Source of the DNA: an uncultured bacterium
GTDB lineage: Bacteria; Actinomycetota; Geothermincolia; Geothermincolales; Geothermincolaceae
Assembly: GCA_963814495.1 (NCBI GenBank)
Contig: CAWFDJ010000032.1
Location: forward strand, 1,259-65,258
Length of the DNA stretch: 64,000 nt
Reading direction: 5' to 3'
How positions within the stretch are numbered: position 1 is the stretch's first letter; each line of letters starts with the position of its first letter. Positions 75-39,437 of this stretch are shown in pieces. The notes under the pieces are model-generated. The model did not search any database. It was not told the DNA's origin and saw only the letters and a program-made list of their open reading frames with translations. The position numbers were made by a program, and so were the translations under genes.

Positions 75-161
75 AGTAAATTTGGGGTCAGACCCCGAAT
101 TTACTTATCTCGCCGGCGCGATTATCCGGTTTTGTAAATTTGGGGTCTGACCCAAATTTAC
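75..161. repeat. Inverted pair of REP-like palindromes (GTAAATTTGGGGTCWGACCC...AATTTAC)
   Basis: 75-105 agtaaatttggggtcagaccccgaatttact and 134-161 gtaaatttggggtctgacccaaatttac; each self-complementary, with loops in opposite orientation (tcaga/tctga). Confidence 0.75.

Positions 162-4126: not shown

Positions 4127-4130
<4 letters not shown>
3257..4130 (-). CDS. ABC-2 type exporter permease (DrrB-like); frameshift near 5' end
   Basis: Hydrophobic 265-aa ORF with WDREFGFLKEVLVSP, FLSGAMFP, NPLTYGVDALR; probable start at 4130 overlapping the ATPase stop. Confidence 0.9.
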
Positions 4131-5135
<1,005 letters not shown>

Positions 5136-5259: not shown

Positions 5260-6520
5260 TCAGTAGCCGATGACGTCGGAGCCGCCGGTCCAGGCGCCGC
5301 GGTAGTTGAAGTAGATGGGGCGCTCGGCCACGATGGGGGCGGTGGAGGCCACCCGGGCGAGACGTTGCGGCCCGCCCCGGCCTCGGCGTTGACGTAGAGG
5401 GTGCGGCGGGACCCGGCGGGCAGGGTGAAGGGTTCCTTGGTGAGCGGGGCGGCGTCCTCGTAGTAGTAGGTGACGGTGACCGTGGCGTCGGTGGCCCAGA
5501 AGTTGGCCAGGCACAGCCACTCCTCGAAGCCGTCGCCCGTGTAGCCCTCGGCGAAACAGGCGTCGGTCGAGCCCTCACGGGCGCCGATGACGTCGGAGCC
5601 GCCGGTCCAGGCGCCGCGGTAGTTGAAGTAGATGGGGCGCTCGGCCACGATGGGGGCGGTGGAAGCCACCCGGGCGCTGACGTTGCGGCCCGCCCCGGCC
5701 TCGGCGTTGACGTAGAGGGTGCGGCGGGTCCCGGCGGGCAGGATGAAGGGTTCCTTGGTGAGCGGGGCGGCGTCCTCGTAGTAGTAGGTGACGGTGACCG
5801 TGGCGTCGGTGGCCGAGAAGTTGGCCAGGCACAGCCACTCCTCGAAGCCTTCGCCCGTGTAGCCCTCGGCGAAACAGGCGTCGGTCGAGCCCTCACGGGC
5901 GCCGATGACGTCGGAGCCGCCGGTCCAGGCGCCGCGGTAGTTGAAGTAGATGGGGCGCTCGGCCACGATGGGGGCGGTGGAAGCCACCCGGGCGCTGACG
6001 TTGCGGCCCGCCCCGGCCTCGGCGTTGACGTAGAGGGTGCGGCGGGTCCCGGCGGGCAGGGTGAAGGGTTCCTTGGTGAGCGGGGCGGCGTCCTCGTAGT
6101 AGTAGGTGACGGTGACCGTGGCGTCGGTGTCCGAGAAGTTGGCCAGGCACAGCCACTCCTCGAAGCCTTCGCCCGTGTAGCCCTCGGCGAAACAGGCGTC
6201 GGTCGAGCCCTCACGGGCGCCGATGACGTCGGAGCCGCCGGTCCAGGCGCCGCGGTAGTTGAAGTAGATGGGGCGCTCGGCCACGATGGGGGCGGTGGAA
6301 GCCACCCGGGCGCTGACGTTGCGGCCCGCCCCGGCCTCGGCGTTGACGTAGAGGGTGCGGCGGGTCCCGGCGGGCAGAATGAAGGGTTCCTTGGTGAGCG
6401 GGGCGGCGTCCTCGTAGTAGTAGGTGACGGTGACCGTGGCGTCGGTGGCCGAGAAGTTGGCCAGGCACAGCCACTCCTCGAAGCCGTCGCCCGTGTAGCC
6501 CTCGGCGAAGTACCACTCCT
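5260..6520 (-). repeat. Intragenic tandem repeat, 4 x 318 bp (106 aa), near-identical copies
   Basis: Shadow ORF ends at 5575, 5893, 6211 are spaced by exactly 318 nt; unit FAEGYTGxGFEEWLCLANF...GGSDVIG. Confidence 0.95.
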
Positions 6521-9500
6521 CCACCGGGGGCTCGGGCTCCCCCCGCACGTCGAAGTAGCCGCTCGCCCCGCCGGCGCCGAGGTGGTCCGCCTCGATGCGG
6601 TCGCCGTCCCACGGGTCCTCCACGCTCACCTGGCCGGACCAGGCGCCGGCCTGGAAGGCCGTGGTCGAGGTGGGGCTCAGGCTGCCCGAGAGGTCGGACA
6701 GGGCCACCGTGCCGGTGAAGCCCTCCACCAGGTTGTCGTAGGCGTCCCGCGCGCTCAGGGTGACGCTGAAGGCCACGCCGGCCTGCTGGCCGGAGATGGC
6801 CGCGAAGGTGAAGTGGTCGAGGGGCCCGGGGTCCACGGCGAAGTCGGCGGAGGTGCCGCTCTCCCCCGCTCCGGCGGCGGTGAGGTGGACGGCCGGGTCC
6901 GCCTGGTAAAGGGTGAGGTCCCCGGTCCAGGTGCCCGCGGTGAAGGAGCCGCTGGCAGCCGGGCTCACGTCGCCCACGCTCGCCGAGAGGGCCACCGTGC
7001 CGGTGAAGCCCTCCACCAGGTTGTCGTAGGCGTCCCGCGCGCTCAGGGTGACGCTGAAGGCCACGCCGGCCTGCTGGCCGGAGATGGGCTCAAAGGTGAA
7101 GTGGTCCAGGGGGCCGGGGTCCACGGCGAAGTCGGCGGAGGTGCCGCTCTTCCCCGCTCCGGCGGCGGTGAGGTGGACGGCCGGGTCCGCCTGGTAAAGG
7201 GTGAGGTCCCCGGTCCAGGTGCCCGCGGTGAAGGAGCCGCTGGCAGCCGGGCTCACGTCGCCCACGCTCGCCGACAGGGCCACCGTGCCGGTGAAGCCCT
7301 CCACCAGGTTGTCGTAGGCGTCCCGCGCGCTCAGGGTGACGCTGAAGGCCACGCCGGCCTGCTGGCCGCCGATGGCCGCGAAGGTGAAGTGGTCGAGGGG
7401 CCCGGGGCCGACGGCGAAGTCGGCGGAGGTGCCGCTCTTCCCCGCTCCGGCGGCGGTGAGGTGGACGGCCGGGTCCGCCTGGTAAAGGGTGAGGTCCCCG
7501 GTCCAGGTGCCCGCGGTGAAGGAGCCGCTGGCAGCCGGGCTCACGTCGCCCACGCTCGCCGAGAGGGCCACCGTGCCGGTGAAGCCCTCCACCAGGTTGT
7601 CGTAGGCGTCCCGCGCGCTCAGGGTGACGCTGAAGGCCACGCCGGCCTGCTGGCCGGCGATGGCCGCGAAGGTGAAGTGGTCGAGGGGCCCGGGGATGAT
7701 GGTGAAGGGCTCGCCGGCCGAGGTGCCGCACATGGTGGTCACCGTCACCGGCCCGTCACCGCACCAGGGCGGCACCCTCACCACGATGACGCCGTCGCTC
7801 CAGCTGACGTACTCCAGGGCCGCGTGCCCGTTGAAGTCCACGTGGCTGCTCCCCTTCTCCGCCCCGAAGCCGGAGCCGTTGACGGTCACCTCCATGCCGT
7901 ACCAGCCCTCGGAATCGCTCAAGGACGTGGTGGCCGGAGCGTCGCCCCCCGGCGTCCAGGTCAGGCCCCAGTCGGTCAGTTCCGGCGTCACCAGGGCGTC
8001 CGTGGTCGAGAGGCCGGCCCGCAGGCGCAAGGCCGGGAAGGACGCGGGGTCGATGCCGGAGATGTCCGCCCCGGACGCCACTCCCGTCCGCACCGTGCCC
8101 GAGACGGCGTCCAGCAGGTCCACAGAAAGCGTAGTGGAGGCGGGGGTCGTCGCGCCGTACTCCACCGCGTCCCAGTCGAAGAAGTATCCCGGCTCGTATT
8201 CCAGCAGGTAACCGAAGAGGCTGGTGCCCGCGTAGATGCGCCCGTTCTCCCCCAGGGCCAGGGCGGAGACCTTCCTCTCCCAGCCCCCGACGCAGGGAAG
8301 CCGGCGGTAGCTCCCGTCCTCGTAGCGCACCAGCAGCTCGTGGTCCAGGGAGTAATCGTTCTGGCTGGTGGTGCCCAGGTAGACCTTGCCGTCGCTGCCC
8401 GGGCAGGCGGTATGGATACCCTTGCCCGTCCCGGGGTCCTCCTGCCCCAGGCTGCCGCTTGACGGGTCGTAGACGAAGACGTACCCGCCCGGCGACGTCC
8501 CCGCGTAGACCCTGCCGTCCGCCCCGCAGGCCAGGCCGGCCGCGAAGCTCTCGCTGCCCAGGGCGGCCAGCTCGCGGGGGTTGTCCTGAGGCCCCGTGCC
8601 GGGGCTCCAGGCCCTGCCGGGGTCGTACGCGAAGAGCGCCGCCCCCACCCCGGCCGTGCCGTAGACCAGCCCGTCCCGCCCCAGGGTCAGCGCGGTCACC
8701 TCGCTGCGCGCGGACACCGGCATGCCCAGGGCCACCGTCTCCCCGCTGTCCAGGTCGTAGTAGAAGAGACGGCCGCCGGGATAGGTGCCCCCGTAGATGC
8801 GCCGTCCCCGGCTGACCAGCGAGGTGATGGTCTGCTCCCCCGCCCGGGGCTGCCCCAGGTCCTCGTATGTTCCCGTAGAGGGCCTGTAACGCACCAGGTG
8901 GGCCGAGGGGTGGGTTCCTATATAGATGGCGCCGTCCGCCCCCTCCGCCAGGCTGGTGAGCCCGTATTCGCCCGGAAGCGGCTGGCCGAGGTCCGTCAGG
9001 TCACCCAGCCCCAGGACCCCGGGCCGGTAGCGGAAGAGGTGGCCGCCTGTCACCGTCGAGATCTCCGGCTCGTTGGGCCAGTCCACGTAGGTCCCCGCGT
9101 AGACGTCTCCCCCCGCGGCCGCCGCGATGGCCGAGACCCGCTGGCTGGCGTTGCCGGTGTTGGGCGGGATGGTCAGCTGGCCCAGCACGGGCGCCTGCGG
9201 GTAGACGGCGTCGGACTTGAGCGAGGCCGTGTCGTCGTAGCGGGCAGCACTCGAGAAGCGGAAGAAGACGTTGTTGAGCCCGGCGCCGTAGACCACGGTA
9301 TCCGACCCCTGCGTAAAGGCGCAGAGGCGGTTGACCCAGAGGTAGTCCTCCTCCGGAGGGCCCAGGTTCTCCAGGGTGTCCGTGGCCGGGTCGTAGGCCA
9401 GGAGGGAGCCGTCGAACCAGTCTCCCCGGCTGTGCCCGTAGGTGCCCAGGTAGACCAGCCCGTCCGGTCCGGCAACCAGGGCGGAGAGTTCCCGCTGGTT

Positions 9501-10580
9501 CTCGAGGACGGGGCCCTTGTCCACTATCCCCGTCTCGGGGTGGGAAGGATCGTAGACAGCCAGTCGGCAGGTGGGATAGGAGCCGAGGTAGATACGCCCG
9601 TCCGGGCCGATGACCAGGTCGCTGAAACTCACCTCCGAGCCCAGGCGACCCAGGTCGGTGAAGGACGCCCCGCCCACGTCATATGAAAAGAGGCGGGCCT
9701 CGTTGCCGGTGCACATGTAGATGACGTCCTGAACGGCATCCGGATGGGCCACCACCCCCCAGGCCTCGTCGATGTCCGGGTCGGCCTTACCCAGGTCCTG
9801 CACGACGGGCGTGGTATCCCATACCGTCGCGGGGTCCAGGCGGAAGAGCCTCCCCCCGCTCTCCGGCGGGGCGGGGGCGGCCGCGGGGGAGTCCGCGTAG
9901 GTCCCGCCGTAGACCCAGCCGTCGTTGCCCATGCACAGGGAGTTGACGGCGTTCTCCCCCGCGATGGCCTGTCCCAGGTCGCGGGGGTTGCCGGAGGTGC
10001 CGGTGCCGGGGTTCCAGGGGAGCGTGGGGTCGTAGACGAAGACCCGTCCCCCTTTCTGCCGGCACTCCTCGGCGTAGGCGGTCTCCCAGTAGTAGATGCA
10101 CCCGTAGATCATGCCGTCCGGGCCTTCCAGCAGGTCGCGCAGGTTCATCTCGGTGCCCGGCCGCCAGTCGTCGATGACCGGGATACCCAGGACCCGGGGG
10201 TTGCAGCCGGCTTCCGTCCCCGGGTTCCACGCGGGGCCGGCGGGGTCGTAGGTGTAGAGGTTCCCGGGCATGGCGGTCCCGCCGTAGATGATGCCGTCGG
10301 AGGCATGGATGAGCGCGCTGGTGTACAGGGTCGTGGTGCTGACCCTGCCCAGGTTGGAGAGCTCGCCCCTGAGCCGCATGCCGTTTCCCGATAAGACGGC
10401 CCGGTCGCTCGAAGTGATCAGGTGGTTATCCTCGAAGGTATCCGTCCACCTGCCCGTGGTGTATTCCGGCCGGGCCTGGGGCGCGCTGGCCAGCAGCAGG
10501 AGGCCGCATGCCAGGAATAGCATGAGCACGCGCACGCAGCTTCCTTGCCGGGAAATCTTACCGGAATTCCTCCCGTCCAC
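5260..10580 (-). CDS. Large secreted surface protein (~1770 aa): signal peptide, beta-propeller repeats, IPT/TIG domain, four Ig-like repeats, four WYxAEG (DUF5719-like) repeats
   Basis: 1790-aa ORF; repeated GxDGxIYxGT blades; VTVNGSGFG...VSWSDGVIVVRVP IPT motif; true C-terminus (GGSDVIGY*) in the 5260-5520 frame after a frameshift at ~5360. Confidence 0.85.
6700..7695 (-). repeat. Intragenic tandem repeat, ~3.5 x 288 bp (96 aa Ig-like unit), near-identical
   Basis: aagtggtc motif at 6811, 7099, 7387, 7675 (period 288); unit GPLDHFTF...SGTSADFAV. Confidence 0.95.
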
Positions 10581-10596
10581 CGCCCATCAACTCGGT

Positions 10597-13500
10597 CTAC
10601 GGGAACGGGGGCTGGGCCGGTGGGATGTACACCGCCGCCTGCTCGATCTTGATGGTCAGGCCGGCGGGCAGGCCGAGGGAGGTCTTGTAGGCGTAAGCCC
10701 TCGTCCACAGGTCGCCGGTGAATCCGCTCTGGGTGGCGTTGACGATGTTGGCCACCGTGTAGGGGTTGAGGTAGGCGATGAGGTTGGCCAGGTTCTGCCG
10801 GCCCGCCGCGCTCAAGGCGTTGAGGGCCTGGGCCACGTAGGTCCCGTCCAGCGAGTTGAGCAGCTCCAAAAGGAAGTTGTAGCCGTAGTTGGAAAGGGTG
10901 TCGGCCAGGGTCGCGCCGTTCATCTGGGGCAGCAGGCGCTCGATGAAGGAAGAACCCGGGTGCATGGCGTACTCCTGGTTCACCGCGTTGGCGATGACCG
11001 AGCCGCTCAGGTTGGAGATGAGGCCCGAAAGGAAAGGCGGCGTTGTCGTTGATGGCCGAGGCCAGCATGCCCACGTCCAGGTTCTTGATCAAGGTATCGG
11101 TCATGCCGGGGTTGTTGTTCATGGCCTGGGCCATGACCGCGGCGGTGTTCGCGTTCAATTGGGCCACCGCCGTCTGCAGCATCTGCTGCGAGGCGGTGTT
11201 GGCGTTGAGGCCGGCCGCCAGCACGATGGCGGTGGAGGGGCTCAAGCCGTTGATGACGTTGGAGATCAGCGCGGTGTTGTTGTTGATGCCCGCGGCCGAG
11301 GCGTAGGCGACGCTGGTGGACAGGTTGGCCAGCAGCTTCTGGAGGAACCCCTTGCCGGCGGCGCAGTTGGCGTTGACGGCCTGGGCCAGGGTGACCGCCG
11401 TGTCGGAGGTGATGTTCTCGATGAGCACCCGGACGAAGTCGGGGTTGGCGTTGACGCCCACCGCCATGCGCGCCCCGGCGTTGGCGCCCATGTTCACTAA
11501 AAGCCCGATGAGCAGGTTGTTGTCGGGCATGGCCGCCACGTTGGCGTTGATGCCGGCGGCCAGCGCCTGGACGGTGGGGACGCTCAAGTTGGCCACCACC
11601 ACCGACAGCAGGTCCTGCCCCGGCGGGCTGGGTGTCCACGTTCAGATTGATGCCGTCCGCCAGGGCCGCGGCCGTGGCCGAGGAGGCGTTCTCGAGCATC
11701 CCGGTTAAGAAGGGGCCGTTGGCGTTGATGGCCCCGGCCAGCACCCCCGCGTCCAGGCGGGCGACGAGGTTGGAGATGAACTCGCGGCCGCTGGTGTAGT
11801 TGTCGGTCAGGCCTTCCGCGGCCGCCTGGCCGATGGCGCCGTCCAGGTTGGCCACCAGGTCACGCACGAAGGCGGGGTCGGAGTTGACGGCCTGGGCCAC
11901 CACCGAGCCCGAGAGGTTGTTGAGCATACCCAAAAGGAAGTCCGAGGTCGCCCCGGCGCCCATCGCGGTGCCGATGTCGGCGGGCAGCTGGGAAAGGAGC
12001 GACTGGATCCAGGCGGCGTTGGCGTTCAAGGCTCCCGCCACCACCGCCGGGTCGAGGCCTTCCATCAGGGCCACGGTGAAGTCGGGCCGGGTGTTCATGG
12101 CGCCGACAGCCGCGCTCACCACCGGCGCTCCGATGTTCAAGACCAGGTTGTAGAGGAAGGTGCCGTTGGCGTTTACGGCTCCCGCCACCACCGAGGGGTC
12201 GAGGCTTGAGATCAGGGCGTCCAGGAAGGCGGGGTTCTGGTTGGTGCCGGCCGCCATGGCCGCAGCCACGTCGCGGCTCAAGCCCGCGGCCAGGTCGGTC
12301 ACCAGGCCCAGGTTGCCCCGGAGCGAGTTGACCACGATGCCCGCGTTCAGGTTGGTGAGCATGGCCGCAAGGAACGCCCCGTTCAGGTTGATGCCTGAGG
12401 CGATGGCCTGGCCCGCCCCGGGCGAGAGGTTGCGGGAGAGGACGCCCGCCATGGCCGGGTTGGCGTTGATGGCGTCGGTCAGGACAGCCGGGTCGAGGTG
12501 GTTGAGCATGGCCACCACCAGGTCGGGGTTGTTGCCCACCCCGGCGGCGATGCCCGCGCCCGCGTCCGGGCTCAGCTGCAGCATCATCTCGTGGGCCAGG
12601 GTCATGGCTTCTGAGGAGTTGACGATCAGGGCCAGGGTGGCCACGTCGGCGTCGTTGTCCAGCGCGCCCAAGATGCGCGAGAGCATGGCCTGGTTGCTGA
12701 TGAGGTCGGCGGTGAAGCGCGGGTCGAGCCGCGCGGCCACGTCGGCCGCCATGTCGATGGAGGAATTGATGACATCCGAGATCATGTCCGGGTCGAGTTG
12801 GGCGATGAGCGAGTTGACGAAGACGGTGGAGGTGGCGAGGGCGGCGGCCACCGGCGCCGGGTTCATGTAGTCCATGGTGGCCCCGATGAGGGTGGAGCCG
12901 TTGACGATGTCCGCCACGAAGCCGGGTTCGATGATGGAGGCGACCATGGCCGCGGTGTCCGCGTTGGCGTTGAGCGCGCCCGCCAGCACCGCCGGGTCCA
13001 GGGAGCCCATCAGCCGGGCCAGGAAGGGCCCGTTGGCGTTGACGGCTGAAGCGATGACCGCCGGGTCGATGTAGCTCATCGAGGCGGAGAGGAAGGCCCC
13101 GTTGGCGTTGATCACGCCCGCCAGCACCCCGGGGTCGAGGTAACTGACCAGCGAGGTCAAAAAGGCCCCGTTGGCGTTGACGGCCGCGGCTGTCGCGGCG
13201 GGGTCGAGCTTGCCCATGATATCGGAAAGGAAGGGCCCGTTGGCGTTGACCACGGAGGCGATGACCGCCGGGTCCAGCCAGGAGATGAGACCTGAAAGGA
13301 AGGCCGAGTTGGCGTTGATGCCGGAGGCCAGGGCCTGTGCGTCCAGGTAGCCGATGAGCTGGGAGATGAACTTGCCGTTGCGGTTGACGATGCCGGCGAC
13401 CAACTCCGGCTTGAGCGCGCGGATCAGATCGATGGCGAAGTCGGCCGAGTTGTTGACCACCTCGGCGACGGCCTTGGGATCGAGGTAGCCGGTCATCTCG

Positions 13501-13805
13501 ATCAGGAACTCGGGGTTGTCGTTGACCACCTGGGCGATGACCTTGACCGTGCCCTCCTCCACCATGGCCGCGATCACGTCGCCTAAGAACTCGGGGTTGT
13601 CGTTGAGCGCGTCCGCCACCGCTTGCGGGCTGGTGTTGGAAAGGATGGCCCCTAAGAGTTCGGGGTCGGAGGCGACCTTGCCCAGGATGGTCCCCAGGGC
13701 GCCCTGCGCCGGCACCAGGACCAAAAGGCCCATGGCCATGGCGACAAAGACCAGCCCCACCACTATGATGTTCACCGTCATCTGGAAATTCTTATTGAGC
13801 AACAT
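10597..13805 (-). CDS. Membrane-anchored helical-repeat protein, paralogue C (~1070 aa; frameshifts at ~11610 and ~11030)
   Basis: N-terminal TM (MLLNKNFQMTVNIIVVGLVFVAMAMGLLVLVP) followed by LDPxVIAxxVNANxxFLxxL repeats continuing through ORFs 11007-13805, 10418-11602, 10597-10983. Confidence 0.8.
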
Positions 13806-13819
13806 ATGTCATCACCTCA

Positions 13820-16800
13820 TCAGGGCAGGGCGCCCGATCCCATCTCTGAAATGTACCCTTCACCCTGCAGGACTATCTGGAAAATAAAGCGTCGCTTTCA
13901 AGTAGATGCCGATACCGAAGTGGTGGAACAGCCCGTTGGGGTAGTTGGCGATGGCCGTGTTCACGGCGGTCGCGAACTGGGCGGCGCTCAGGTTGTTCAG
14001 CAGTTCGACGGTCATGGCGTATCCGTTGGCGTTGACCGACTGGGCTATGGCCTTGCCGTCGAGCCCGTTGACCAGCGTGGGCAGCAGGCCGATGAGCCCC
14101 GCGCCGGAGTTGTAGTTCAAGGCCTGTCCCACCAGGGTCCCGCTCAAGCGGGTGGGGCCGCCGATGAGCTGGTTGATGAGGTTCTGGCCGGCGGCGCTGT
14201 TCATGATGCGCCCCATCATGGCCGCGTCCAGGCTGGCCAGGTTGTTGCGGAGCATGTTCATGGGCGCCCCGTCGATGCCCGCGTTGACGGCCGCTCCCAG
14301 GGCGGCCGCGTCCAGGGAGCCGATGAGCGTGCTCAGGATGTTGTTGGGGTTGTCGTTCAAGGCGTCGGCTATGGCCACCGCCGTGTGCGACTGGATGCCG
14401 GTCATGGTGATGTACAAAGGCGAGGGCGAGCCCACGGCCATGCCGTTGATGCCTCTGCCCAGGGCGCGTCCGGTGTCCGAGTTCAAGTTGCCGAGCAGGT
14501 TGGTCAGGAACCCGGGGTTCTGGGCCGCGTTCTGGTTGAGGCCGGTGGCCAGCGCGGCCGCGGTGGCGGGCGAGAGGTTCTCGATGAGCAGGCGCATGAA
14601 ATCGGGGTTGGTGGTGGCCGCCTGGTTGGCCGCCTGGGCCATGGAGATGCCCGCGTTGCCGTCCAGGTTGGTGATGACGTTGGTGAGCAGGTTGGGATTG
14701 ACATCCAGCGCCCCGGCTATCACCTGGGCCAGGGCCGGGTCGAGGTTGGAGATGAGCGCCGGCATCAGGTCGTTGTTCAGGTTCATGCCCTGGGCCATGG
14801 CCGCGCCGGTCACGTCGGAAAGCTGGGAGATGAGGGCCTGGATGAAGCCGGGGTTGGCGTTCAAGGCCTGCGCCACCGCCTGGGCTACGCCGGCGTCGAG
14901 GTTGGCCACCAGGTCGCGGGCGAGGGTCGGGTTGACGTCCAGGGCGCCGGCGATGACCGCCGGGTCGAGGTTGGCGATCAGGGTGGTCAGGAACCCCTGA
15001 GAGTTGTTGACGCCAGCCGCGATGGAGTCGGCCAGGGCCTGGTCCGCCGGGTTGGTGGTGCCCAGCAGGGCGGTTAAGTTGCGGGCCATGGTGGGGTGGT
15101 TATTGACGGCCTGAGCCAGCACCACCGGGTCCAGCCCGCCGATGACCGCGTTGAGCAGGGCCCCGTTGGCGTTGAGGCCCAGGGCCATCTGGCCGGCCGA
15201 TGCCCCGTTGACGCCCGCGATGAGCGGCTGGATCTTGGAAAACGCGAAGGGCTGGATGCCCACGGCGAGGATGTGCGTGTTCAGCGCGCCGATGAGGTTG
15301 GTAAGGAACTGCTGGTTGGAGTTGAGGCCTTCAGCCGCGGCGGTCGCCAGGCTGGTATCCAGGTAGGGCATGAGGTCCGCGGCCAGCTCGGGATGGGCGT
15401 TGATCACGCCCACCAGCATGGTCGGGCTCAAGTCATGGATCATCTGGGAAAGGAAGGCCCCGTTGGCGTTCAAGCCGGCCGCCGCCGCCGCGGCGGTGCC
15501 CGGCGTGAGGTTGGCGGTGAGCCCGGTGACGAAGGCCGCGGTCTGGTTCATGATGCTCAAGATCACCGACGAGTCCAGGCCGGCCACCATGGCGTCCAGG
15601 AACGGGGCGTTGGCATTGATGCCGGCCGCCGCAGCCGCCGCGGTCTCAGGGTGCAGCGCGGCCAGGATGCCGGTCAGGAAGGTGGTGGACTGGTTTAAGG
15701 CCCCTGCCAGCACCACCGGGTCGGAGGCCGCCACCATGGTGTTGATGAAGGCCGCGTTGTTGTTGAGGCCCTCCGCCGCCGCGGCGCCCACGTTGGCCGG
15801 TATCTGGCTGACCAGCGAGGTCAGGAAGGCCGCGTTGGCGTTGGTGGCCCCGGCGATGACCGAGGGGTCGAGCAGGCCCATCACGTCGGTCATGAAGCCC
15901 ACGTTGAGCAGGATATGCTTGATGTAGTCGATGTTCAAGTACTCGACGATGCGGGACACCGACTCGCCGTTGCCGTTCATGATGTCGGCCACCGACTGCG
16001 GGTCCATGTTGTTGACCAGGGTCAGGATGAAGGCCTCGTTGGCATTCAGGGCCGCGGCCAGCGGGGCCGGTTCCATCAGGCCCAGCATGCGGGTCAAGAT
16101 GGCCTCGTCGCTGGCGATGGCCGCGACGGACCGGGGGTCGAGGTTGTTGGCCACCGCGGTGACGAACCCCAGGTTGGCGTTTAAGGTGTCCACGATGATC
16201 TGGGGGTTGACCGCCCCCATCATGCCGGCCAGGAAGGCGCCGTTGGCGTTGATGGCCTGAGGCCAGTACTCCGGCGTCCAGCGAGCCGATGAGGCCGGAG
16301 AGGAACCGCGGGTTGGCGTTGATGATCTGGGCCGAGGACGCGGGGTCCAAGAGTCCCAGCAGGCTGGTCAAGAAGGGGCCGTTGGCGTTGACGGCCTGAG
16401 CCAGCACCGCCGGGTCGAGCGAGCCGATGAGCAGCGAGGTGAACTCGGGGTTGGCGTTCATGGCCCCCGCCAGCACGTCGGGGTTGAGGTTTGCGAGCAG
16501 GCCGGAAAGGAAGGCGCCGTTGGCGTTGACGATGCCCGCCACCACCTGGGGGTTCAAGTAGCCCATGAGGTCCGAGGTGAACTTGGGGGTGGCGTTGAGG
16601 ATGGCCGCGACCTGCTTGGCGTCGAGCGAGCTCGAGCAGGCTGTCGACGAAGGGGATGTTGGCTTCCAGGGCCAGGGCGATCACCTGGGGATTCAAGTTG
16701 TTGACCACCTCGATCACGAAGGTGGGCTTGGTGTTGACCACCAGCACCAGGTTCTGCATGCTCTCCTCGCTCGAGCCCATCTCCTTGATGAGGGCATCGA

Positions 16801-17020
16801 GGAATTCGGGGTTTTCGTTGACGGCCTGGGCCAGGGCCACCGGGTCGAGGCCGCTGATGATGCCCGAGAGCAGCTGGTTGCGGCTGGCCATCTTGCCCAG
16901 CAGGGCCCCGACGCCGGTCTTGGCGGGCGTGAGCATGACCAGGCCCATGAACATGAAGACCAGCACCAGCCCCAATACTATCAAGTTCACTACGAGCTGA
17001 ACCGGTTTTCTCAATAGCAT
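13820..17020 (-). CDS. Membrane-anchored helical-repeat protein, paralogue B (~1065 aa; frameshifted)
   Basis: N-terminus MLLRKPVQLVVNLIVLGLVLVFMFMGLVMLTP; repeats across ORFs 16220-17020, 15646-16566, 13860-16223; removing one T at ~13885 extends it to ...IFQIVLQGEGYISEMGSGALP* ending at 13820, directly before the next SD. Confidence 0.8.
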
Positions 17021-17078
17021 CTCAGCTCAACCATCCTGTCTGAACCGGTTTCCAATAGCATCTCGGCTCAACCATCCT
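16998..17078 (-). repeat. Tandem duplication (40 bp + 38 bp) of the SD/start-codon region of paralogue B
   Basis: 16998-17037 tgaaccggttttctcaatagcatctcagctcaaccatcct vs 17041-17078 tgaaccggtttccaatagcatctcggctcaaccatcct. Confidence 0.9.
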
Positions 17079-17082
17079 CTTC

Positions 17083-20000
17083 CTACCAACTCGTGTACTC
17101 TGCCGGCGGGAAGTTGGCATCCTCGCCGGAACGCATGACCCTGCACCAGACGTCCAGCCACAGAAGCCCGTAGCCGGCCACGAAGACGTGCGACGCGGCG
17201 AAGAACCACACGCACTCCAGCATGTTGTAATTGGGGACCGGGGTGTCGGGCTGATGTACCGCCATGGCCCGGTTGATAACGTCCACGATGACGTTGGCGT
17301 CCAGGTTGCCCAGGAGCGTGGTTACCATGTTGCCCGAGGAGTTGTTGACCGCTTGAGCCACCACCTGCCCGAGGTGGTTGGTGCCCGCCCTGGCCAGCAG
17401 GGCGTTCATCAGCGCCGGGTTGGCGTTCATGGCATTGGCGATGATGGTGCCGTTCAAGGTGGCGAGCAGGCTGGAGACGAAGGCCTTGCCCCCGTTGGTG
17501 GCCAGCGCGTTGTTGAGGGCGGTGGCCAGAGACGCCGGGCTGAGCTGGGCGACGAGGCTCTGCATGAAGGGCTCGTTGTTGTTCAGGGTGTTGGCCAGCA
17601 CCGTGCCGTCCAGGTTGCGCAGCAGGTTCTCCACCAGGGTGGGAGCCCCGTTGACGGCCTGGGCGATGGCGGTGGCCGCGCTTGAGTTCAGGTTGACCAG
17701 CAGCTGGTACATGAAGCCGTCGAAGTTGTAGGGCGGGGTGTTGATGGCCGCGACGATGGCGGTGGACACGTCCGTGTTCATCGCCTTGAGCATGACCTCG
17801 AGGAAGTATTCCCCTCCCCACATGGTCTGGGAGTTCTCGTTGAGTCCGGCCGCCACCGCCGTCCCGGTGGCCCCGTTGAGCTCGGGCAGAAGCGAGGTGA
17901 TCAGCGCGGTGTTGGCGTTCAAGCCAGCGGCGATGGCCGTGGCCACCCCGCCGTTGAGCCCGCTCATCAGCGAGCCCATGAAGGCCGGCGGGGCCTGGTT
18001 GAGCCCCTTGGCGATGGCCGTGCCCACCGCGGGCGACAGTCCCGCCAGCAGCGGCTCGATGATGTCGGGACGGTTGTTCAAGGCCGTGGCGATGGCCGCG
18101 CCCACGTCGCCGTCGAGCCTGGCCGCCACCTCCGTCGCCGTGGCGGGGTTGGCGTTCATGCCGGCCGCGATGGCCGCCGCGGCGGTGGGGTCGAGGTTCT
18201 CGAGCAGCCCGCCCACGAAGGCGGGGTTGTTGTTGATGGCCGAGGCGATGACCGCCGGGTTGGAGTAGAGCAGGGTGGACTTTAAGAAGGAGTCGGCCGT
18301 GACCGGCTTGGCCGCGTCGATGTTGAGGCCCTGGGCCGCCGCCGGCAGCCGTCGCGCTTGAGAGCAACGGCAGAAGCGTGCTGACCAGGTTGCCGTTACA
18401 GTTGTTGAGCGCGGCCGCCAGCACCGCGGGGTCTGAGGCCGCGAGCACCGCGTCGAGCAGGGCGGGGTTGGCGTTGATGCCGGCGGCGGCCGCGGAGCCC
18501 ACGCCGGCGCTCAAGTTCTGGATGAGCTGGCGGGTGACCGCCGCGGTGTCGTTCAAGACCCCCGCCATCACCACCGGGTCCAGGGCGGCCAGGGCGGCCA
18601 CCAGGATGCTGTGGTCGGTGTAGGTGACGGCGTTCATGTTGATGGCGTTGGCGAGCACGGTCCCCAGGGCGGGATCCAGGGCGCCCAGCAGGCCGGTGAC
18701 GAAGGCGCCGTTCTGGTTGAGCACCCCGGCCAGCACCTCCGGGTCGACGTCGGAGATCAGCTCGTCTAAGAAGGCCGCGTTGGTGTTGAGCCCGGCCGCG
18801 GCGGCGGTGGCGATGTCCGGGGTCAGCGCCGCGATGAGGGCGGTCATGAAGCTTGACGCCGGCGTCCAGGGCCGCGGCCAGGGCCGCGGGGTCCAGCGTG
18901 TTGACTAGCGCCACCAGGAAATCGGGGTTGTCGTTCATGCCCGCGGCCGCCTGCGTGGCGACGGCTGGTGAGAGGCCGGCCACCAGGTCGGTGACGAAGC
19001 CGGAGGCCTGGCTGAGCGCGTCGGCCAGCCCCACGGCGGGCAGGTTGTTGAGCAGGCCGACTAAGAAGCCGGGGTTGTTGTTGAGCGCGTCGGCGGCGCC
19101 GGCCGCGATGGTCGGGCGAAAGCAGCGGCAGCAGGCGGGAGATGAGGGTGGGGTGCTCGCCTAAGGCCCCGGCGATGGCGGCCGCGTCGATGTAGCGCAT
19201 CACGTCGGTCATCATCTGCTGGTTGTTGGCGATGGTGGCTAACAGTTGGGGGCTGAGCTGATCTTCCACCTGGTAGATGAGGGAGGGGTTGTCGTTGGCG
19301 ATGCCCGCCGCCCAGGCCGGGTCGATGGCGCCCACCAGCCCGTTGGTGAACGAGGTGTGGGCGTTCATGGTGGCGGCCAGCCAGATGGGGTCGAGCGCGC
19401 CCACCAGGGCGGTGATCCAGGCGGTGTCGTTGGCCGTCTCGGCCAGCACCCCGATCAGGAGCTCGTCCGAGAGGTTGTTGATGAGGCCCACGGCCATCTG
19501 CGAGTTGGCGTTGACGGCTCCCGCGATCACCCCGGGGTCGAGGTAGCCCAGGAGGCGGGAGAGGAAGGTGGGGTTGGCGTTGACGCCGGCTGCCAGGACG
19601 GCAGGGTCGAGCACGCTGATGAGCGAGGTGAGGAAGGGGCCGTTGGCGTTGATGACGCCGGCCACCACCGCCGTGTCCAGGAAGCCGATGAGGGCCGAGG
19701 CCATCTGCGGGTTGGCGTTGATGGCCGCTGCCAGCACCGCCGGGTCGAGCAGGCCGATAAGCGAGGCCGAGGAAGGGGCCGTTGGCGTTGATGGCGAAGG
19801 CCAGCACCGCCGGGTCCATGGCGCCCATGGAAGCGGTGAGGAAGGCCTGGTTGGAGTTGATGGCTCCCGCGATGACCTCGGGCTTGAGGTAACCGAGCAG
19901 CGCGGTGAACCAGGGCCCGTTCTCGTTGACCACCCCGGCCAGCACCTTGGGGTCTAAGTACTTCATCAGGTCGATGGCGAACGTCGTCGAGCCGGCGACC

Positions 20001-20344
20001 ACCGAGGCGATGACCTGCGGGTTGAGGTTGGCGATGAGCTGGATGAGGAACTGCGGGTTTGAGTTGACGGCCTCGGCGATCATCTTCGCGCCCTCCGGCC
20101 CGAGCTCGTCGACGATCTCCACCATCATCTCCGGGCTCTCGTTGAGCGCGGCGGCCAGGTCGGCGGGGTCGAGGTTGTCCAGCAGGGCGGAGAGGTTTCC
20201 GTTGGAGCTGATGATCTTGCCCAGCAGCGGCCCCATGGGGCTCTTGGCCGGCACCAGCATTATCCCTCCCAGCACCATGGCGGCTATCACCAGGGTGATG
20301 ACGATGATGTTGATCACCGTCTGGAAGGGTGCTCTCAAAAGCAT
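17083..20344 (-). CDS. Membrane-anchored helical-repeat protein, paralogue A (~1085 aa; frameshifted)
   Basis: N-terminus MLLRAPFQTVINIIVITLVIAAMVLGGIMLVP; repeats across ORFs 19061-20344, 18844-19737, 18396-19034, 17027-18847, 17083-18216. Confidence 0.8.
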
Positions 20345-20441
20345 CTTCTTCGCCTTCCCTTTCTCGTCTCCAATGGCTACGAGAGACCGGGTGGTGTTGC
20401 GTCTGTTGAGTAAGTAATCGTCTGTTTAGAAAGTAAACTTG

Positions 20442-20470
20442 ATTATACTATTTTCAACCATCGTCCGCAA
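20442..20470 (-). promoter_or_regulatory. Putative sigma70 promoter of the repeat-protein operon
   Basis: TTGCGG (20470-20465) N17 TATAAT (20447-20442) on the minus strand, ~100 nt upstream of the 20344 start, in an AT-rich gap. Confidence 0.65.
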
Positions 20471-20667
20471 CCGTTCTTACGCTTTTTATTCTACCCCAGC
20501 CGGCGACAGTATGGGTCATAGGACAATCGCTCCCGGCCATTTGTCACATAATATTTACACGACGGTAACATCCCCGTTACATATATCCGGGTGAACGGGC
20601 CCCGGCGGGGGTTGAGCGGTGGAATCCGGCCGTTGACTGAAGCCGTCGGACGGCTCCGACGCCGGGT

Positions 20668-23477
20668 TCAGGGCTCCAGGACGCCGATGGAGCAGGTCCC
20701 CCCGGTCCGGCCGTTCCAGTACATGGCCCGCTCGGCCACCACCGGGTATCCGAGGCTCGAGATCATCACCGACACGTCGGAGGAGTCGATGATGCTGTTG
20801 ACGTCCACCGAGACCCGGCTGAACGGAGGCAGGTAGCAGTATTCCTCGGCGGTCCCCCCGCCCGGCAGCATGAAGGTCAGGGTGGCCTGCACCTCCGTGT
20901 CGGTGGGGTTGGAGACGAGCACCCACTCCTCGAAACCCCAGGCGGTGGTGCCCTCGGCCAGGTACCACACCGTCGCGGGGGTCAGGCTGCCGGTGCTGGC
21001 GTGCCCCTCCACGCGGCCGTTCCAGTACATGGCGCGCTCGGCGATGACCGGGTCCGCGGCGTAGATGGAGGTGGAGACGTCCTCCGCCCCCACCACGTCA
21101 GCCACGTTCAGGGTGTAGCGGGTGTTGCCGGGCAGGGGCACCTCGAAGTCGGTGCCCTGTCCCTGCCCGTCCAGGAAGGAGAAGGTGACGGTGGTGGGCG
21201 TGGCGGACGGGTTCTGCACCAGCACGAACTCCTCGTAGCCCCAGGCGGTGGTGCCCTCGGCCAGGTACCAGGTGCGGGAGGGGGTGGTGGCCCCGATGGA
21301 GTCGTGCCCGCCGGAGCGGTCGTTCCAGTACATGGCGCGCTCGGTGATGACCGGCAGGTCGCTGGAGACGCGGACGGAGACATCGGTTGAGGGGACCACC
21401 TGGTTCAGGGGGACGGTGCGGCGGGTGGCGGGGCCACCTCCATCACGTAGGGGGTGACCGCCGAGCCGTCCGGCCGCATGAAGTCGAAGGTGACGTGGGC
21501 GGTCTGGCCCGCCCCGGGGTTGGGGTTCTGCACCAGCAGGTATTCCTCGAAGCCCCAGGCGGTGGTGCCCTCGGCCAGGTACCAGGTGGTGGAGGGCGCG
21601 TTCACCCCGATGGAATCGTGTCCGGCCTGCCTGTCGTTCCAGTACATGGACCTCTCCACGATGACCTCGCCGCCCGTCGACTCTACGTAGGTGGAGACGT
21701 CGCTCGGCGAGACCTCGGCGTTGAGGTGGATGGTGGTGCGGGAATCGCCCGGCAGGTCCAGGGGCGCCCGCACCTGGGGGCCGGTCGGCTTCATGTAAGT
21801 GATGTTCACGGTGACGGGGGCCGGGTTGGGGTTCTGGATCAGCACCCAGGTATCGAAGCCCCAGGCGGTGGTGCCCTCGGCCAGGTACCAGGTGGTCGGA
21901 GGGGCGCGGCTGGGAATCGTTGTAATAATAATAGGCTGATGCCGGAACCGCTGATACCGTCGGTATCCCAGGCCCTGACCTCCACCCGGTGCCCCCTCGC
22001 CGCTCAAGCGAGGAAGGTCGTAAGCCGGTGAAGGTGCGGGTGACGGGGCGTGTAGGGGACCGGTACGTCGTAGAAGTCCTTGAGGGCGCCGTCGACGTAG
22101 AGTTCCAGGCGCTGGATGTCGGTGGAGCGCAGGCTCTCGCGCGTAGGCGGTGACGTACCCCGTGGGCTCGAAGGTGTAGGGGGTGGGGCTCTGGATGGTC
22201 ACCTCGACGCGGGCCAGGGCCTCCATGACGTCCAGGCGGCCGAAGCCGTAGTACTCGTCCCAGCCCCCGTCGCCGAGGTCCTGGGCGTTGTCCCGCAGCG
22301 CCTCCCAGACCTGCTGGGTGGTGAGGGCGGGGTCGTCGGCCCAGACCAGCAGGGCCGCCCCGGCCACGTGGGGAGTGGCGATGGAGGTGCCCGTGGAGTA
22401 GCCGAACTCGTCGCCCGGCAGGACCACGGGGATGCCGGCGGTGCCGCCCCGGAATTCGCCCGGCGCCACCAGGTCCACGCTGGAGTTGTGGTTGGAGAAG
22501 CCGGAGTGCAGGTCGTCGACGTCCACCGAGCCCACCCCGATGACGTCCGGGTAGGCCGCCGGGTAATCGAGCTGGGTGCTCCCCTCGTTGCCCACCGCCG
22601 CCACCATCAGGCAGCCGGAGCTGACGGCGAAGCTGACGGCTGAGCGCACGTCGGGGTCGTCCTCGCTCGAAGGTGAAGCTCATGTTGACGATCGTCGGCC
22701 CCGTGACCGGCCGCGTAATAGACGGACTGGCTCACCGAGTCGGTGGTGCCCTCGCCGTGGGAGTTGAGCGCCTTCAGGGGCATGATCTTGCCGAACCAGG
22801 CCATCCCGGCCACCAGCGCGGCGTTGTCGGTGGCCGCGGCGGCCACGCTGGCCACCCCCGTCCCGTGGCCGTCGTCGTCTAAGGGGTCCGGGTCGTTGTT
22901 GTAGAAATCGTAGCCGGCGACGCAGCGGGAAGCGAACTCCACGCCGTCGTAGTCCAGGCCGGTGTCGATGACCGCCACGGTGAAGGCGTCGGAGCCGCGC
23001 TCCGAGTCCCAGGCCTCGTTGGCCCGCACCCGGCGCAGGTTCCACTGCTGCCCGTAGCGGGGGTCGTCGGGCGTGGTGTCCTGCGCGCGGTAGACCAGGT
23101 TGGGCTGCGCGGACCTCCACCATGGGCAGCCGGGACAGCAGCGAGCAGGCCTCCTCCACGTCCAGGCCCTCCCTCAGGGTCAGCTTGACCTGGGAAGGCA
23201 GGGGGAGCTCCTCCTGCAGGCGCTCAAGGCCCGCCGGGTCCAGGTCGGAAAGGAGGCCGGCGGCCGCATCCAGCAGCCACTCCAGGGAACCCCGCCATTC
23301 CCCGGAGAGCCTCACCACTATCTCGCCCGGCACGAAATCCCCGGCCTCCACGGAGGCGGCTCCCGCGGGTGCGGATGCCGCGGCGCGCGTCGCCGGCCCC
23401 GCCAGGCCCGCGGAGGCGAGCAGCACCATGGCTGTCACCGCCATTGTCGTGACCAGGTAGATGCTCCTGTTCTTCAA
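20668..23477 (-). CDS. Secreted S8 (subtilisin-family) serine peptidase with four C-terminal WYLAEG (DUF5719-like) repeats; frameshifted
   Basis: Catalytic triad motifs VAVIDTG, DDDGHGTGVAS, GTSIATPHVAG; signal peptide and propeptide (FVPGEIVV); ORFs 22607-23029, 21405-22649, 20668-22683; probable TTG start 23477. Confidence 0.88.
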
Positions 23478-23524
23478 CTCCGTCTCCCGTCCTTCCTGCG
23501 AGGCCGCCAAGAAGAGGCCTGACC

Positions 23525-24785: not shown

Positions 24786-24896
24786 ATATATCTCCGTTTA
24801 TCTGCTGTAACGTCATGAATATTTTACACGTTAGACGGTGGTAACGGGGATGTGCAGGTGCCGGGGGTCAGGCCCGGATTCAGGCCGGGGCGGGGG

Positions 24897-38528: not shown

Positions 38529-38562
38529 GGAACCTCCGTTAAGGACCTTCTTCTTACCTGAT

Positions 38563-39414: not shown

Positions 39415-39437
39415 TTCTTCCGATGCCTCGTATGACG

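What the first reader, a model, noticed from the sequence alone, without database searches (positions are those of the whole stretch)
5260..20470. Candidate undescribed cell-envelope apparatus: three tandem membrane-anchored ~1,070-aa helical-repeat paralogues plus a giant secreted propeller/Ig protein in one operon
Seen: one promoter-like element (TTGCGG-N17-TATAAT) precedes four co-oriented genes with short gaps (about 60, 15 and 16 nt). The first three share a distinctive N-terminus (MLL+x(P/N)xQxxxNxIVxxLV...MxxGxxxLxPA...GxxLGK), then dozens of LDPxVxAxxxNxNxxFLxxL repeats, then a non-repeat tail. None has a catalytic motif or a family I recognise. The fourth is a secreted beta-propeller/IPT/Ig protein carrying the local surface-attachment module. 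Inference: the three form a hetero-oligomeric rod or conduit that is tethered in the cytoplasmic membrane and crosses the wall, with the propeller protein as tip, adhesin or cargo. The logic (co-encoded paralogous TM-anchored helical subunits) recalls the actinobacterial MceA-F needles, but no MCE domain or YrbE permease is visible.
Basis: partly seen in the sequence, partly recalled or inferred. Interest (0 to 1): 0.88.

Follow-up and report, generated by a model that had tools for sequence, protein, structure and literature searches.

The report
Conserved trio of helical-repeat envelope proteins
Three neighbouring genes encode very long proteins of an undescribed family, found in every sampled member of one uncultured class of Actinomycetota; each has a hydrophobic N-terminal helix, and they have gained or lost length together, so they probably build one cell-envelope structure of fixed length.

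Summary
On the minus strand lie four co-oriented genes: A (20344-17083), B (17020-13820), C (13805-10597) and D (10580-5260). About ten single-base indels break them, but such indels also break neighbouring genes, and a same-genus genome has intact ORFs of 1085, 1065 and 1068 aa.

A, B and C are collinear paralogues (33-37% identity). Each has one N-terminal hydrophobic helix, 33-34 repeats of about 23 aa, and a paralogue-specific C-terminal beta-hairpin. AlphaFold2 models B as an alpha-solenoid. No Pfam, NCBIfam or PDB family matches above a curated cut-off.

The family was found only in the class Geothermincolia: 18 of 18 sampled genomes against 0 of 232 elsewhere in the phylum. Three tandem genes occur in 27 of 30 relatives.

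The strongest new result is that lineage-specific length changes are matched in size and position in all three paralogues (about 195 aa and about 95 aa) without gene conversion. A complex prediction gave only weak support (0.53; best control 0.00).

The best reading is an in-register A-B-C envelope rod or ruler. D is a tandem-propeller/TIG/Ig/DUF5719 exoprotein that follows C in only 7 of 28 loci, so it is accessory. An Mce-like conduit is not supported. Function remains inferred.

The parts
20442..20470 (-). Promoter-like element TTGCGG-N17-TATAAT upstream of gene A
   Evidence: Read directly. The -10 hexamer is perfect; the -35 hexamer matches at only 3 of 6, so the scan did not list it. TATAAT is kept in 3 of 4 aligned genomes.
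20542..20581 (-). Two conserved operator-like inverted repeats (TGTAAC...GTTAC and TGTAA...TGACA) about 95-135 nt upstream of the -10
   Evidence: Blocks of invariant columns across 4 genomes in alignment A5. The binding factor is unknown.
17083..20344 (-). Gene A: paralogue 1, about 1085 aa, with 4 frame changes in this assembly (near 19772, 19119, 18880 and 18345)
   Evidence: tblastn of the intact G001 orthologue P0001 gives 75-84% identity in 5 collinear pieces. GC3 frame path.
16997..17078 (-). 41-nt tandem duplication (2.0 copies, 92% matches) covering B's ribosome-binding site and start codon
   Evidence: The A-B gap is 62 nt here and 23 nt in G001.
13820..17020 (-). Gene B: paralogue 2, about 1065 aa, with 3 frame changes (near 16628, 16260 and 13892). 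The apparent stop at 13860 is an artefact.
   Evidence: Contigs from other runs lack one base at 16634, 16258 and 13892.
10597..13805 (-). Gene C: paralogue 3, about 1068 aa, with 2 frame changes (near 11627 and 11030)
   Evidence: A contig from another run lacks one base at 11040.
5260..10580 (-). Gene D: secreted protein of about 1773 aa. Order of parts: signal peptide, tandem beta-propeller (Reg_prop), TIG, 4 Ig-like repeats (288-nt units), 4 ASRT/DUF5719 repeats (318-nt units). One frame change near 5358.
   Evidence: Pfam. Tandem repeats at 97-98% matches. AF2 pLDDT 83. Best Foldseek matches are the BT4673/BT4663 sensor propellers, E about 1e-21. True C-terminus read.
20671..23348 (-). 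Context gene: subtilisin-like S8 protease with C-terminal DUF5719 repeats (3 frame changes here)
   Evidence: It lies directly upstream of A in 18 of 21 order-level genomes; the other 3 are cut by contig ends.
23537..24797 (-). Context gene: murA (1 frame change here)
   Evidence: 84-89% identity to the G001 orthologue in two frames. Found upstream of the S8 gene in 16 loci. The name MurA is recalled from the sequence, not taken from a family scan.
4127..5059 (-). Context gene: DrrA-like ABC ATPase, with its own promoter-like site at 5211-5182
   Evidence: Pfam ABC_tran 2.8e-34. Promoter-like site with 11 of 12 matches.

Best explanation
A, B and C are three ancient paralogues of a protein family specific to the class Geothermincolia.

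Suggested by the sequence and the model of B: each has a short N-terminus, one hydrophobic helix with invariant polar residues (Q8, N12) ending at an invariant proline (P32), about 950 residues of roughly 23-aa two-helix repeats predicted to fold as an alpha-solenoid, and a paralogue-specific C-terminal beta-hairpin.

Inferred: the solenoid lies outside the cytoplasmic membrane. The three proteins assemble side by side and in register, most likely 1:1:1, into one long rod or fibre. The hydrophobic helices hold it at the membrane and the three beta-hairpins join it at the far end.

Inferred: the rod is a structural element of the cell envelope whose length is under selection. It could be a spacer or ruler, or a stalk for an outer layer. 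It is expressed next to wall-associated exoenzymes that carry DUF5719 repeats.

D is a glycan-binding-type tandem-propeller exoprotein that some lineages inserted after C. It is an accessory, not a core part.
For: (1) Fold. AF2 of the G001 B orthologue (84% identical to the window's B over the intact 794-aa piece) used 83 aligned homologues. It gave mean pLDDT 72, with 85-92 over residues 70-290 and 690-860. It shows a helix at 6-29, about 88 short helices, and a beta-hairpin at 1036-1059. Foldseek finds only generic HEAT/ARM solenoids.

(2) Conservation.
- The family matched in 40 of 41 relatives; the one miss is a 62%-complete genome.
- In a phylum sample, 18 of 18 genomes of the class matched and 0 of 232 other genomes did.
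- Three tandem genes lie on one contig in 27 of 30 genomes.
- Within the window's order, A, B and C are each one clade with support 100.

(3) Matched indels.
- Relative to G001, G004 lacks A 408-601 (194 aa), B 411-607 (197 aa), and C 403-575 plus 9 plus 14 (196 aa).
- G007 lacks A 544-633 plus 12 (102 aa), B 517-611 (95 aa), and C 525-573 plus 597-643 (96 aa).
- Lengths from Q8 to the C-terminus are 1078/1058/1061 in G001, 901/878/895 in G004, and 809-854 for the three-gene sets of families f4-f6, excluding G031's lone gene at 923.
- r(B,C) is 0.96 over 18 genomes and 0.89 within the 16 f3 genomes.
- The segments concerned are only 32-39% identical between paralogues. This excludes recent gene conversion and implies parallel changes.

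(4) Distinct, conserved beta tails for each paralogue class.

(5) Complex prediction of the last 300 aa of A, B and C.
- Verdict: weak support. Score 0.53; best of 3 controls 0.00.
- Calibration: the mark was reached by 58 of 80 solved complexes and 2 of 110 mismatched pairs. At 0.60 or under it was reached by only 7 of those 80 solved complexes and by both mismatches that passed.
- The runs agree in at least 89% of contacts. Partner pLDDT is at least 59.

(6) Outside location.
- Composition is K 0.7-0.8%, E about 2%, R 2-3%, C 0-0.3%.
- In f4-f6 the first paralogue carries a charged extension of about 110 aa before the hydrophobic helix (K+R 15-19 and D+E 11-18 in the first 105 aa). That extension must stay in the cytoplasm.
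- The neighbouring genes encode exoproteins.
Against: - No experiment and no expression data exist.
- The complex score falls in the weak band. The tool states that close cousins of a true partner also pass (10 of 12 colicin pairs), so it cannot separate a hetero-oligomer from a homo-oligomer.
- Matched lengths could reflect a shared constraint, such as envelope thickness, on three independent proteins. The shared indel position may simply be the most tolerant region, because it coincides with the low-pLDDT stretch at about 500-625.
- A's length does not correlate with B or C within f3 (r = -0.19 and -0.17).
- The hydrophobic segment plus V/I-P-A/S could be a long cleavable signal peptide of the Gram-positive type, in which case the proteins are not membrane-anchored.
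- HEAT-like solenoids are usually intracellular. The only weak sequence resemblance, MgtE_N, is to a cytoplasmic domain.
- pTM is 0.41, so the overall shape and length of the rod are not predicted.
- G031 shows only one paralogue at its locus.
Confidence: 0.45

Rival explanations
1. A, B and C are three independent surface proteins. Each would be a monomer or homo-oligomer forming a coat, fibrils or adhesins. The paralogues are kept for functional diversity and do not co-assemble.
For: - The surface-type composition.
- The family is expanded elsewhere in the genomes: 13-36 matches per genome and a second cluster on contig C8.
- A's length is uncorrelated with B or C within f3.
- The complex score is only weak and cannot separate paralogues.
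Against: - Fixed gene order and number in 27 of 30 genomes.
- Indels of equal size at equivalent positions in all three paralogues, seen in two separate lineage comparisons, without gene conversion.
- Three different conserved C-terminal beta-hairpins, which stand unpaired in the monomer model.
- Invariant polar residues in the hydrophobic helix.
Confidence: 0.2
2. The proteins are secreted and cleaved after the conserved N-terminal segment, which would be a specialised signal peptide comparable to YSIRK-type motifs. They then form a lattice or sheath of the S-layer kind that is not tethered to the membrane.
For: - The n, h and c regions total about 33 aa, with small residues before the invariant P32 region (VPA, TPA, IPS).
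- The composition is acidic, Cys-free and hydrophobic, which is typical of S-layer proteins (the typical S-layer composition is recalled knowledge).
- An S8 protease gene is always adjacent.
Against: - The f4-f6 first paralogue has about 110 charged residues before the hydrophobic helix, which does not fit a classical signal peptide.
- Q8, N12, V15, G26 and P32 are conserved across all paralogues over class-level divergence.
- Some orthologues have LPV-K, a poor signal-peptidase site.
- No SLH or other wall-binding domain was found.
Confidence: 0.15
3. The solenoids face the cytoplasm (N-out, C-in) and form a membrane-tethered scaffold, for example one that organises wall synthesis.
For: - HEAT/ARM-type solenoids are mostly intracellular.
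- There are weak MgtE_N-like matches: 9 of 20 C orthologues, best E 2.5e-7. In the proteins whose scores were shown, the matches lie below the curated cut-off (13.4-18 bits against 25.9).
- murA is a conserved neighbour.
- The charges flanking the helix are ambiguous.
Against: - K+R+E is only about 5%, which is unlike cytoplasmic proteins.
- A charged 110-aa N-terminal extension in f4-f6 would have to cross the membrane without a signal.
- The flanking genes encode secreted proteins.
Confidence: 0.1
4. This is a trans-envelope transport conduit in the manner of Mce/Let/Pqi, possibly working with the ABC transporter encoded downstream.
For: - Co-encoded paralogues, each with an N-terminal hydrophobic helix and a long helical part.
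- A DrrA-like ABC ATPase and a permease follow C or D in the window and in many f3 genomes.
Against: - No MCE domain was found in A, B or C, nor in 20 C orthologues.
- The fold is a two-helix-repeat solenoid, not a coiled-coil needle or a beta-barrel ring.
- The ABC genes have their own promoter-like site.
- The ABC genes are not directly next to C in 4 f3 loci (L018, L024, L033, L038). In f4-f6 a zinc-ribbon gene or a D-like gene follows instead. The four zinc-ribbon loci (L020, L042, L043, L045) carry an unrelated ABC set further on or, in L045, none.
Confidence: 0.06

Closest known systems
Envelope spacer or stalk proteins: E. coli Lpp, Thermotoga Omp-alpha, Sulfolobus SlaB (recalled from the literature; no call retrieved them)
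   Same: Long helical rods fixed at one end in or at a membrane, whose length sets a distance in the envelope. The matched length changes in A, B and C are what one would expect of a ruler.
   Different: Those proteins are homo-oligomeric coiled coils of about 60 to 400 residues. Here there are three different chains of about 1000 aa, each an alpha-solenoid built from 23-aa two-helix repeats. There is no sequence relation.
Mce / LetB / PqiB trans-envelope assemblies
   Same: Several co-encoded paralogues, each with an N-terminal membrane helix and a long helical extension, thought to cross the envelope together.
   Different: No MCE domain and no YrbE-type permease were found. There are three paralogues rather than six, a solenoid fold, and no evidence of a channel.
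HEAT/ARM alpha-solenoids (karyopherins, CAND1), and the short-repeat MgtE_N and LRV types
   Same: The same fold class of stacked two-helix repeats. Foldseek probability is 1.0, with E 1e-6 to 2e-5 over the 50 rows shown. There are weak MgtE_N matches.
   Different: - TM-scores are only 0.10-0.24 and identity is 10-13%.
- Of the Pfam helical-repeat models (HEAT, ARM, MgtE_N and the like), the only one that appears is Importin_rep_5, in 2 of 20 C orthologues at best E 0.037. In the proteins whose scores were shown, no family reaches its curated cut-off.
- The repeat is unusually short (23 aa) and poor in charged residues.
- The likely location is extracytoplasmic.
- LRV is recalled and was not tested.
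Periplasmic sensor domains of Bacteroides hybrid two-component systems BT4673 and BT4663 (applies to gene D only)
   Same: D's first 940 aa model as a Reg_prop-type tandem beta-propeller followed by Ig-like domains. The best Foldseek E-values are 1e-21 to 1e-19. Reg_prop scores 35.1 bits against a cut-off of 20.4.
   Different: D has no kinase or receiver domains. It continues into TIG, four Ig-like repeats and four ASRT/DUF5719 repeats, so it is a surface exoprotein and not a sensor kinase.

Membership tests
Mce/MlaD superfamily (MCE domain proteins) | An MCE domain following the N-terminal transmembrane helix | tested here: not met
   Pfam scans of window fragments of A, B and C and of 20 C orthologues at E<=0.1 list no MCE family.
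Mce/MlaD superfamily (MCE domain proteins) | A linked YrbE/MlaE-type permease | tested here: inconclusive
   The downstream ATPase is DrrA-like. The adjacent 323-aa ORF matched no Pfam family at E<=1e-4. No search for MlaE was made in the whole genome.
HEAT/ARM repeat families (Pfam) | A sequence match to a HEAT, ARM or related repeat model above its cut-off | tested here: not met
   Searches give only sub-threshold hits: XPC-binding in 13 of 20, MgtE_N in 9 of 20, Importin_rep_5 in 2 of 20.
HEAT/ARM repeat families (fold class) | Stacked antiparallel two-helix repeats forming a solenoid | tested here: met
   The AF2 secondary structure shows about 44 helix pairs. All 50 listed Foldseek matches are alpha-solenoids, though with TM-scores of only 0.10-0.24.
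MgtE_N (PF03448) | A score above the gathering cut-off of 25.9 bits | tested here: not met
   Scores are 13.4, 15 and 18 bits in the proteins whose scores were shown. The best E among 20 orthologues is 2.5e-7, but its bit score was not shown.
S-layer proteins with SLH or other known wall anchors | An SLH or another known wall-binding domain | tested here: not met
   None is listed for A, B or C.
ASRT / DUF5719 repeat proteins (gene D and the S8 protease) | A match above the curated cut-off | tested here: met
   D scores 73.6 bits on ASRT (cut-off 25) in 4 stretches. The G001 S8 protease scores 39.8 bits on DUF5719 (cut-off 26.2).
Hybrid two-component system sensors (gene D) | Reg_prop propellers joined to histidine-kinase and receiver domains | tested here: not met
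   The propellers are present, but no HisKA, HATPase or Response_reg match was found in D.
Peptidase S8 (upstream neighbour) | A Peptidase_S8 domain above the cut-off | tested here: met
   170.9 bits against a cut-off of 21.8 in the G001 orthologue. The mycosin equivalog TIGR03921 scores 188 bits, below its cut-off of 278.75, so the protein is not a mycosin.

The most novel reading that the evidence does not exclude
Geothermincolia build a cell-envelope element of a kind not yet described: a heterotrimeric alpha-solenoid rod, tens of nanometres long, fixed at the membrane. Its three chains must keep the same length and register, so it acts as a molecular ruler or stalk that sets the spacing of an outer layer or a wall zone. 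The trio would then be a class-defining envelope signature. The 810, 900, 1000 and 1080-aa length classes would predict measurable differences in envelope dimensions between lineages.
Probability: 0.25. Interest if true: 0.85.

Novelty: categorically new. Interest (0 to 1): 0.68.

Why it matters
Geothermincolia are an uncultured, deep-branching class of Actinomycetota, and my literature searches found nothing on their envelope. A universally conserved set of three roughly 1000-aa proteins with no known family may therefore point to an unknown envelope structure.

The co-ordinated indels give a concrete, testable prediction: envelope spacing should scale with protein length. They are also an unusual example of three paralogues changing length in parallel. 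Extracytoplasmic alpha-solenoids built from 23-aa repeats poor in charged residues would in addition be a new structural material.

The caveat is that the function is inferred only from sequence, models and comparative genomics.

Tried and rejected
**Searches that found no family or structure**
- Pfam and NCBIfam gave nothing above a curated cut-off for A, B or C.
- The PDB sequence search gave 0 hits at E<=10.
- The ESM Atlas returned only a 'hypothetical protein' cluster at 0.86, which is below the 0.9 lead level.
- The word-index homology search found 6 proteins, and the only name given was 'hypothetical protein'.
- The exhaustive search found 104 clusters at E<=1e-3 among 1.84 billion representatives. 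It carries no names.

**Literature**
- 'Geothermincolia' returned 4 papers.
- 'DUF5719' returned 0 papers.
- The genus names of related candidate taxa returned 34 papers, of which 15 were listed.
- 'alpha-solenoid / cell wall / membrane-anchored / Actinobacteria' listed 10 of 155 papers.
- I saw only the listings, plus two passages of PMC12917137. Those passages give the GTDB lineage of Solincola and say nothing about these genes.
- No supplementary files were opened; they might hold annotation tables.

**Expression**
- No RNA holder was listed.
- The DNA holders had small shares (0.20 or less) and I do not use them for habitat.

**Age of the triplication**
- FastTree (83 rows) and IQ-TREE (24 rows) group the window's-order A+B+C apart from the f4-f6 paralogues.
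- AU tests did not reject any of the 7 finished pairings out of 9, with p 0.27-0.46. Two tests did not finish.
- Odd amino-acid composition was flagged for f4-f6 rows.
- It therefore remains open whether the triplication is older than the class.

**Readings rejected**
- Pseudogenes: neighbouring genes are broken in the same way, and other assemblies lack the extra bases.
- Recent gene conversion as the cause of the matched indels.
- D as a core component.

**Not done**
- Interaction of the N-terminal helices was not tested, because only one complex job is allowed.

Full report
**1. What is in the window**

The finding lies on the minus strand. A GC3 frame path and tblastn with intact orthologues define four genes:
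- A: 20344 to 17083.
- B: 17020 to about 13820.
- C: 13805 to 10597.
- D: 10580 to 5260.

The intergenic gaps are 62, 14 and 16 nt.

The promoter-like TTGCGG-N17-TATAAT sits at 20470-20442. Its -35 hexamer matches the consensus at only 3 of 6 positions, so the scan did not list it. The TATAAT is kept in 3 of 4 aligned genomes. Two palindrome-like blocks further upstream are invariant in all 4.

**2. The frame changes are assembly indels**

The genes are interrupted by about ten frame changes: A 4, B 3, C 2, D 1. Three observations indicate that these are indel errors spread across the assembly and not decay of this operon:
- murA and the S8 protease gene upstream carry 1 and 3 such breaks.
- Contigs from other public runs lack one base at 11040, 13892, 16258 and 16634 (25 more indel rows were not shown).
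- The same-genus genome G001 has uninterrupted ORFs of 1085, 1065 and 1068 aa.

I therefore used the G001 orthologues P0001-P0003 for folding and comparison. They are 65-88% identical to the window pieces.

**3. The three paralogues**

A, B and C are collinear over their full length at 33-37% identity.
- Composition is extreme: Ala 18-19%, Leu 12-15%, Asn 9-10%, Gly 8-9%, but Lys 0.7-0.8%, Glu about 2%, Arg 2-3% and Cys 0-0.3%.
- An iterated repeat profile finds 33-34 repeats per protein between residues about 50 and 1015, with a modal spacing of 23 aa.
- AF2 of B used 83 aligned homologues. It gave pLDDT 72 and pTM 0.41. It shows a helix at 6-29, about 88 helices of roughly 10 residues, a poorly predicted centre (582-625), and a terminal beta-hairpin at 1036-1059.
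- Foldseek returns only generic HEAT/ARM solenoids, at TM 0.10-0.24.
- In 83 aligned homologues, Q8, N12 and P32 are invariant. These are two polar residues on one face of the hydrophobic helix, plus the proline that ends it.
- Each paralogue class has its own conserved C-terminal beta tail.
- No Pfam, NCBIfam or PDB sequence family is matched.

**4. Distribution**

Record titles place the relatives in Candidatus Geothermincola, Solincola and Anoxymicrobiaceae. A passage of PMC12917137 gives c_Geothermincolia for Solincola.
- The family matched in 40 of 41 relatives; the miss is a 62%-complete genome.
- In a phylum-wide sample it matched in 18 of 18 genomes of the class and 0 of 232 others.
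- Only 104 clusters at E<=1e-3 exist among 1.84 billion representatives.
- Of 30 relatives whose locus I fetched, 27 show three tandem genes on one contig. G003 has them across two contig ends, G030 is cut by a contig end, and G031 shows one gene only.
- In the window's order the gene order is always A-B-C, and each forms a clade with support 100.
- Families f4-f6 also have three orthologous groups. How these relate to A, B and C is unresolved: no pairing was rejected in the 7 of 9 AU tests that finished.

**5. Neighbourhood**

The S8 protease carrying DUF5719 repeats lies directly upstream of A in 18 of 21 order-level genomes; the other 3 are cut by contig ends. murA lies before it in 16 loci.

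What follows C varies:
- A D-like gene follows C in 7 of 28 loci.
- In most of f3 a DrrA-like ABC pair, a 7TM histidine kinase, a LuxR-type regulator and a SpoIID-DUF5719 protein lie downstream instead.
- In 4 f4-f6 loci a zinc-ribbon protein follows.

In the window the ABC ATPase comes after D and has its own promoter-like site. The conserved unit is therefore the trio, and D is an insertion in some lineages.

D itself is well supported as a secreted tandem Reg_prop propeller. AF2 gives pLDDT 83, and the best Foldseek matches are the glycan-sensing domains of BT4673 and BT4663 at E about 1e-21. These are followed by TIG, four near-identical Ig-like units, and four ASRT/DUF5719 units.

**6. 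Do the three act together?**

The new evidence is evolutionary. Lengths from Q8 to the C-terminus fall into lineage classes that all three share:
- G001: 1078 / 1058 / 1061.
- G004: 901 / 878 / 895.
- G007: 968 / 960 / 972.
- Three-gene sets of f4-f6: 809-854 (G031's lone gene is 923).

Pairwise alignments place the differences at the same position and give them the same size in each paralogue:
- G004 lacks 194, 197 and 196 aa starting at about residue 405.
- G007 lacks about 102, 95 and 96 aa around residues 517-655.

The segments concerned are no more alike between paralogues (32-39%) than the rest of the proteins. The changes were therefore made three times in parallel and not copied by gene conversion.

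This fits chains that must stay in register. It would also fit a common length constraint acting on independent proteins, and within f3 only B and C co-vary (r = 0.89; A r = -0.19 and -0.17).

A complex prediction of the last 300 residues of A, B and C gave weak support:
- Score 0.53; best of 3 controls 0.00.
- The mark was reached by 58 of 80 solved complexes and 2 of 110 mismatched pairs. At 0.60 or under it was reached by only 7 of those 80 solved complexes and by both mismatches that passed.
- The runs agree in at least 89% of contacts, and partner pLDDT is at least 59.
- The tool warns that close cousins of a true partner also pass, so this cannot tell a hetero-oligomer from a homo-oligomer.

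**7. Topology**

The charges flanking the helix are ambiguous. Three things argue for an outside location:
- The near-absence of Lys, Arg and Glu.
- The secreted neighbours.
- The roughly 110-aa charged extension that precedes the helix in the first f4-f6 paralogue.

Whether the segment is later cleaved in the window's order cannot be decided here.

**8. Verdict**

The roles proposed for D and the Mce analogy are not supported.

No described family or system matches. I rate it categorically new at the level of family and architecture, while the fold class is ordinary. Function remains inferred.

Noticed in passing
window 16997-17078: A 41-nt tandem duplication (2.0 copies, 92% matches) repeats gene B's ribosome-binding site and start codon. 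It creates a second, out-of-register ATG upstream. The same gap is 23 nt in G001. Whether it is a real variant or an assembly artefact is not known.
   Followed up: partly
window 20542-20581: Two operator-like inverted repeats (TGTAAC..GTTAC and TGTAA..TGACA) lie upstream of the A promoter. They fall in blocks of invariant columns across 4 genomes. They are candidate sites for an unknown regulator; a LuxR-type response regulator is encoded downstream at 2443-3162.
   Followed up: partly
G000 contig C8, about 38285-53710 (locus L021): The window's own genome has a second large cluster of related repeat proteins of a different subtype, including an open frame of about 2000 aa. It runs divergently from what look like CpaF- and CpaE-like pilus-assembly genes; those names are recalled from the N-terminal sequences and were not scanned.
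   Followed up: partly
window 20671-24797 and throughout: Single-base indels break conserved genes at roughly one per 1-1.5 kb in the stretch examined. murA has 1, the S8 protease gene has 3, and the four operon genes have about 10. The V-ATPase B subunit gene (25581-26972) is intact. Any ORF-based annotation of this assembly will be fragmented.
   Followed up: yes
window 5266-6509 and 6700-7695: Gene D holds two arrays of nearly identical long repeats: 318 nt x 3.9 at 98% matches (ASRT/DUF5719 units) and 288 nt x 3.5 at 97% matches (Ig-like units). These are either recent expansions or collapsed or expanded assembly, so the copy number is uncertain.
   Followed up: partly
window 91-1338; loci L018, L025, L033, L038: The DUF5719/ASRT repeat module is appended to several different exoproteins: the S8 protease, a SpoIID-like protein (Pfam-scanned only in L018), the tandem-propeller protein D, and giants of 1900-2800 aa in f4-f6. 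It behaves as a lineage-wide surface-attachment module whose ligand is unknown.
   Followed up: partly
loci L020, L039-L046 (families f4-f6): The first of the three paralogues carries a conserved, charged N-terminal extension of about 110 aa (it begins MV(R/S)LNEDSGNLFDK...). In 4 loci a zinc-ribbon-like protein (CxxC...CxxC at its start) follows the trio. Neither was analysed further.
   Followed up: no
locus L040 (G031): Only one paralogue is present at this locus, and its C-terminal tail differs from all others. This is a possible exception to the three-gene rule, or a misassembly.
   Followed up: partly
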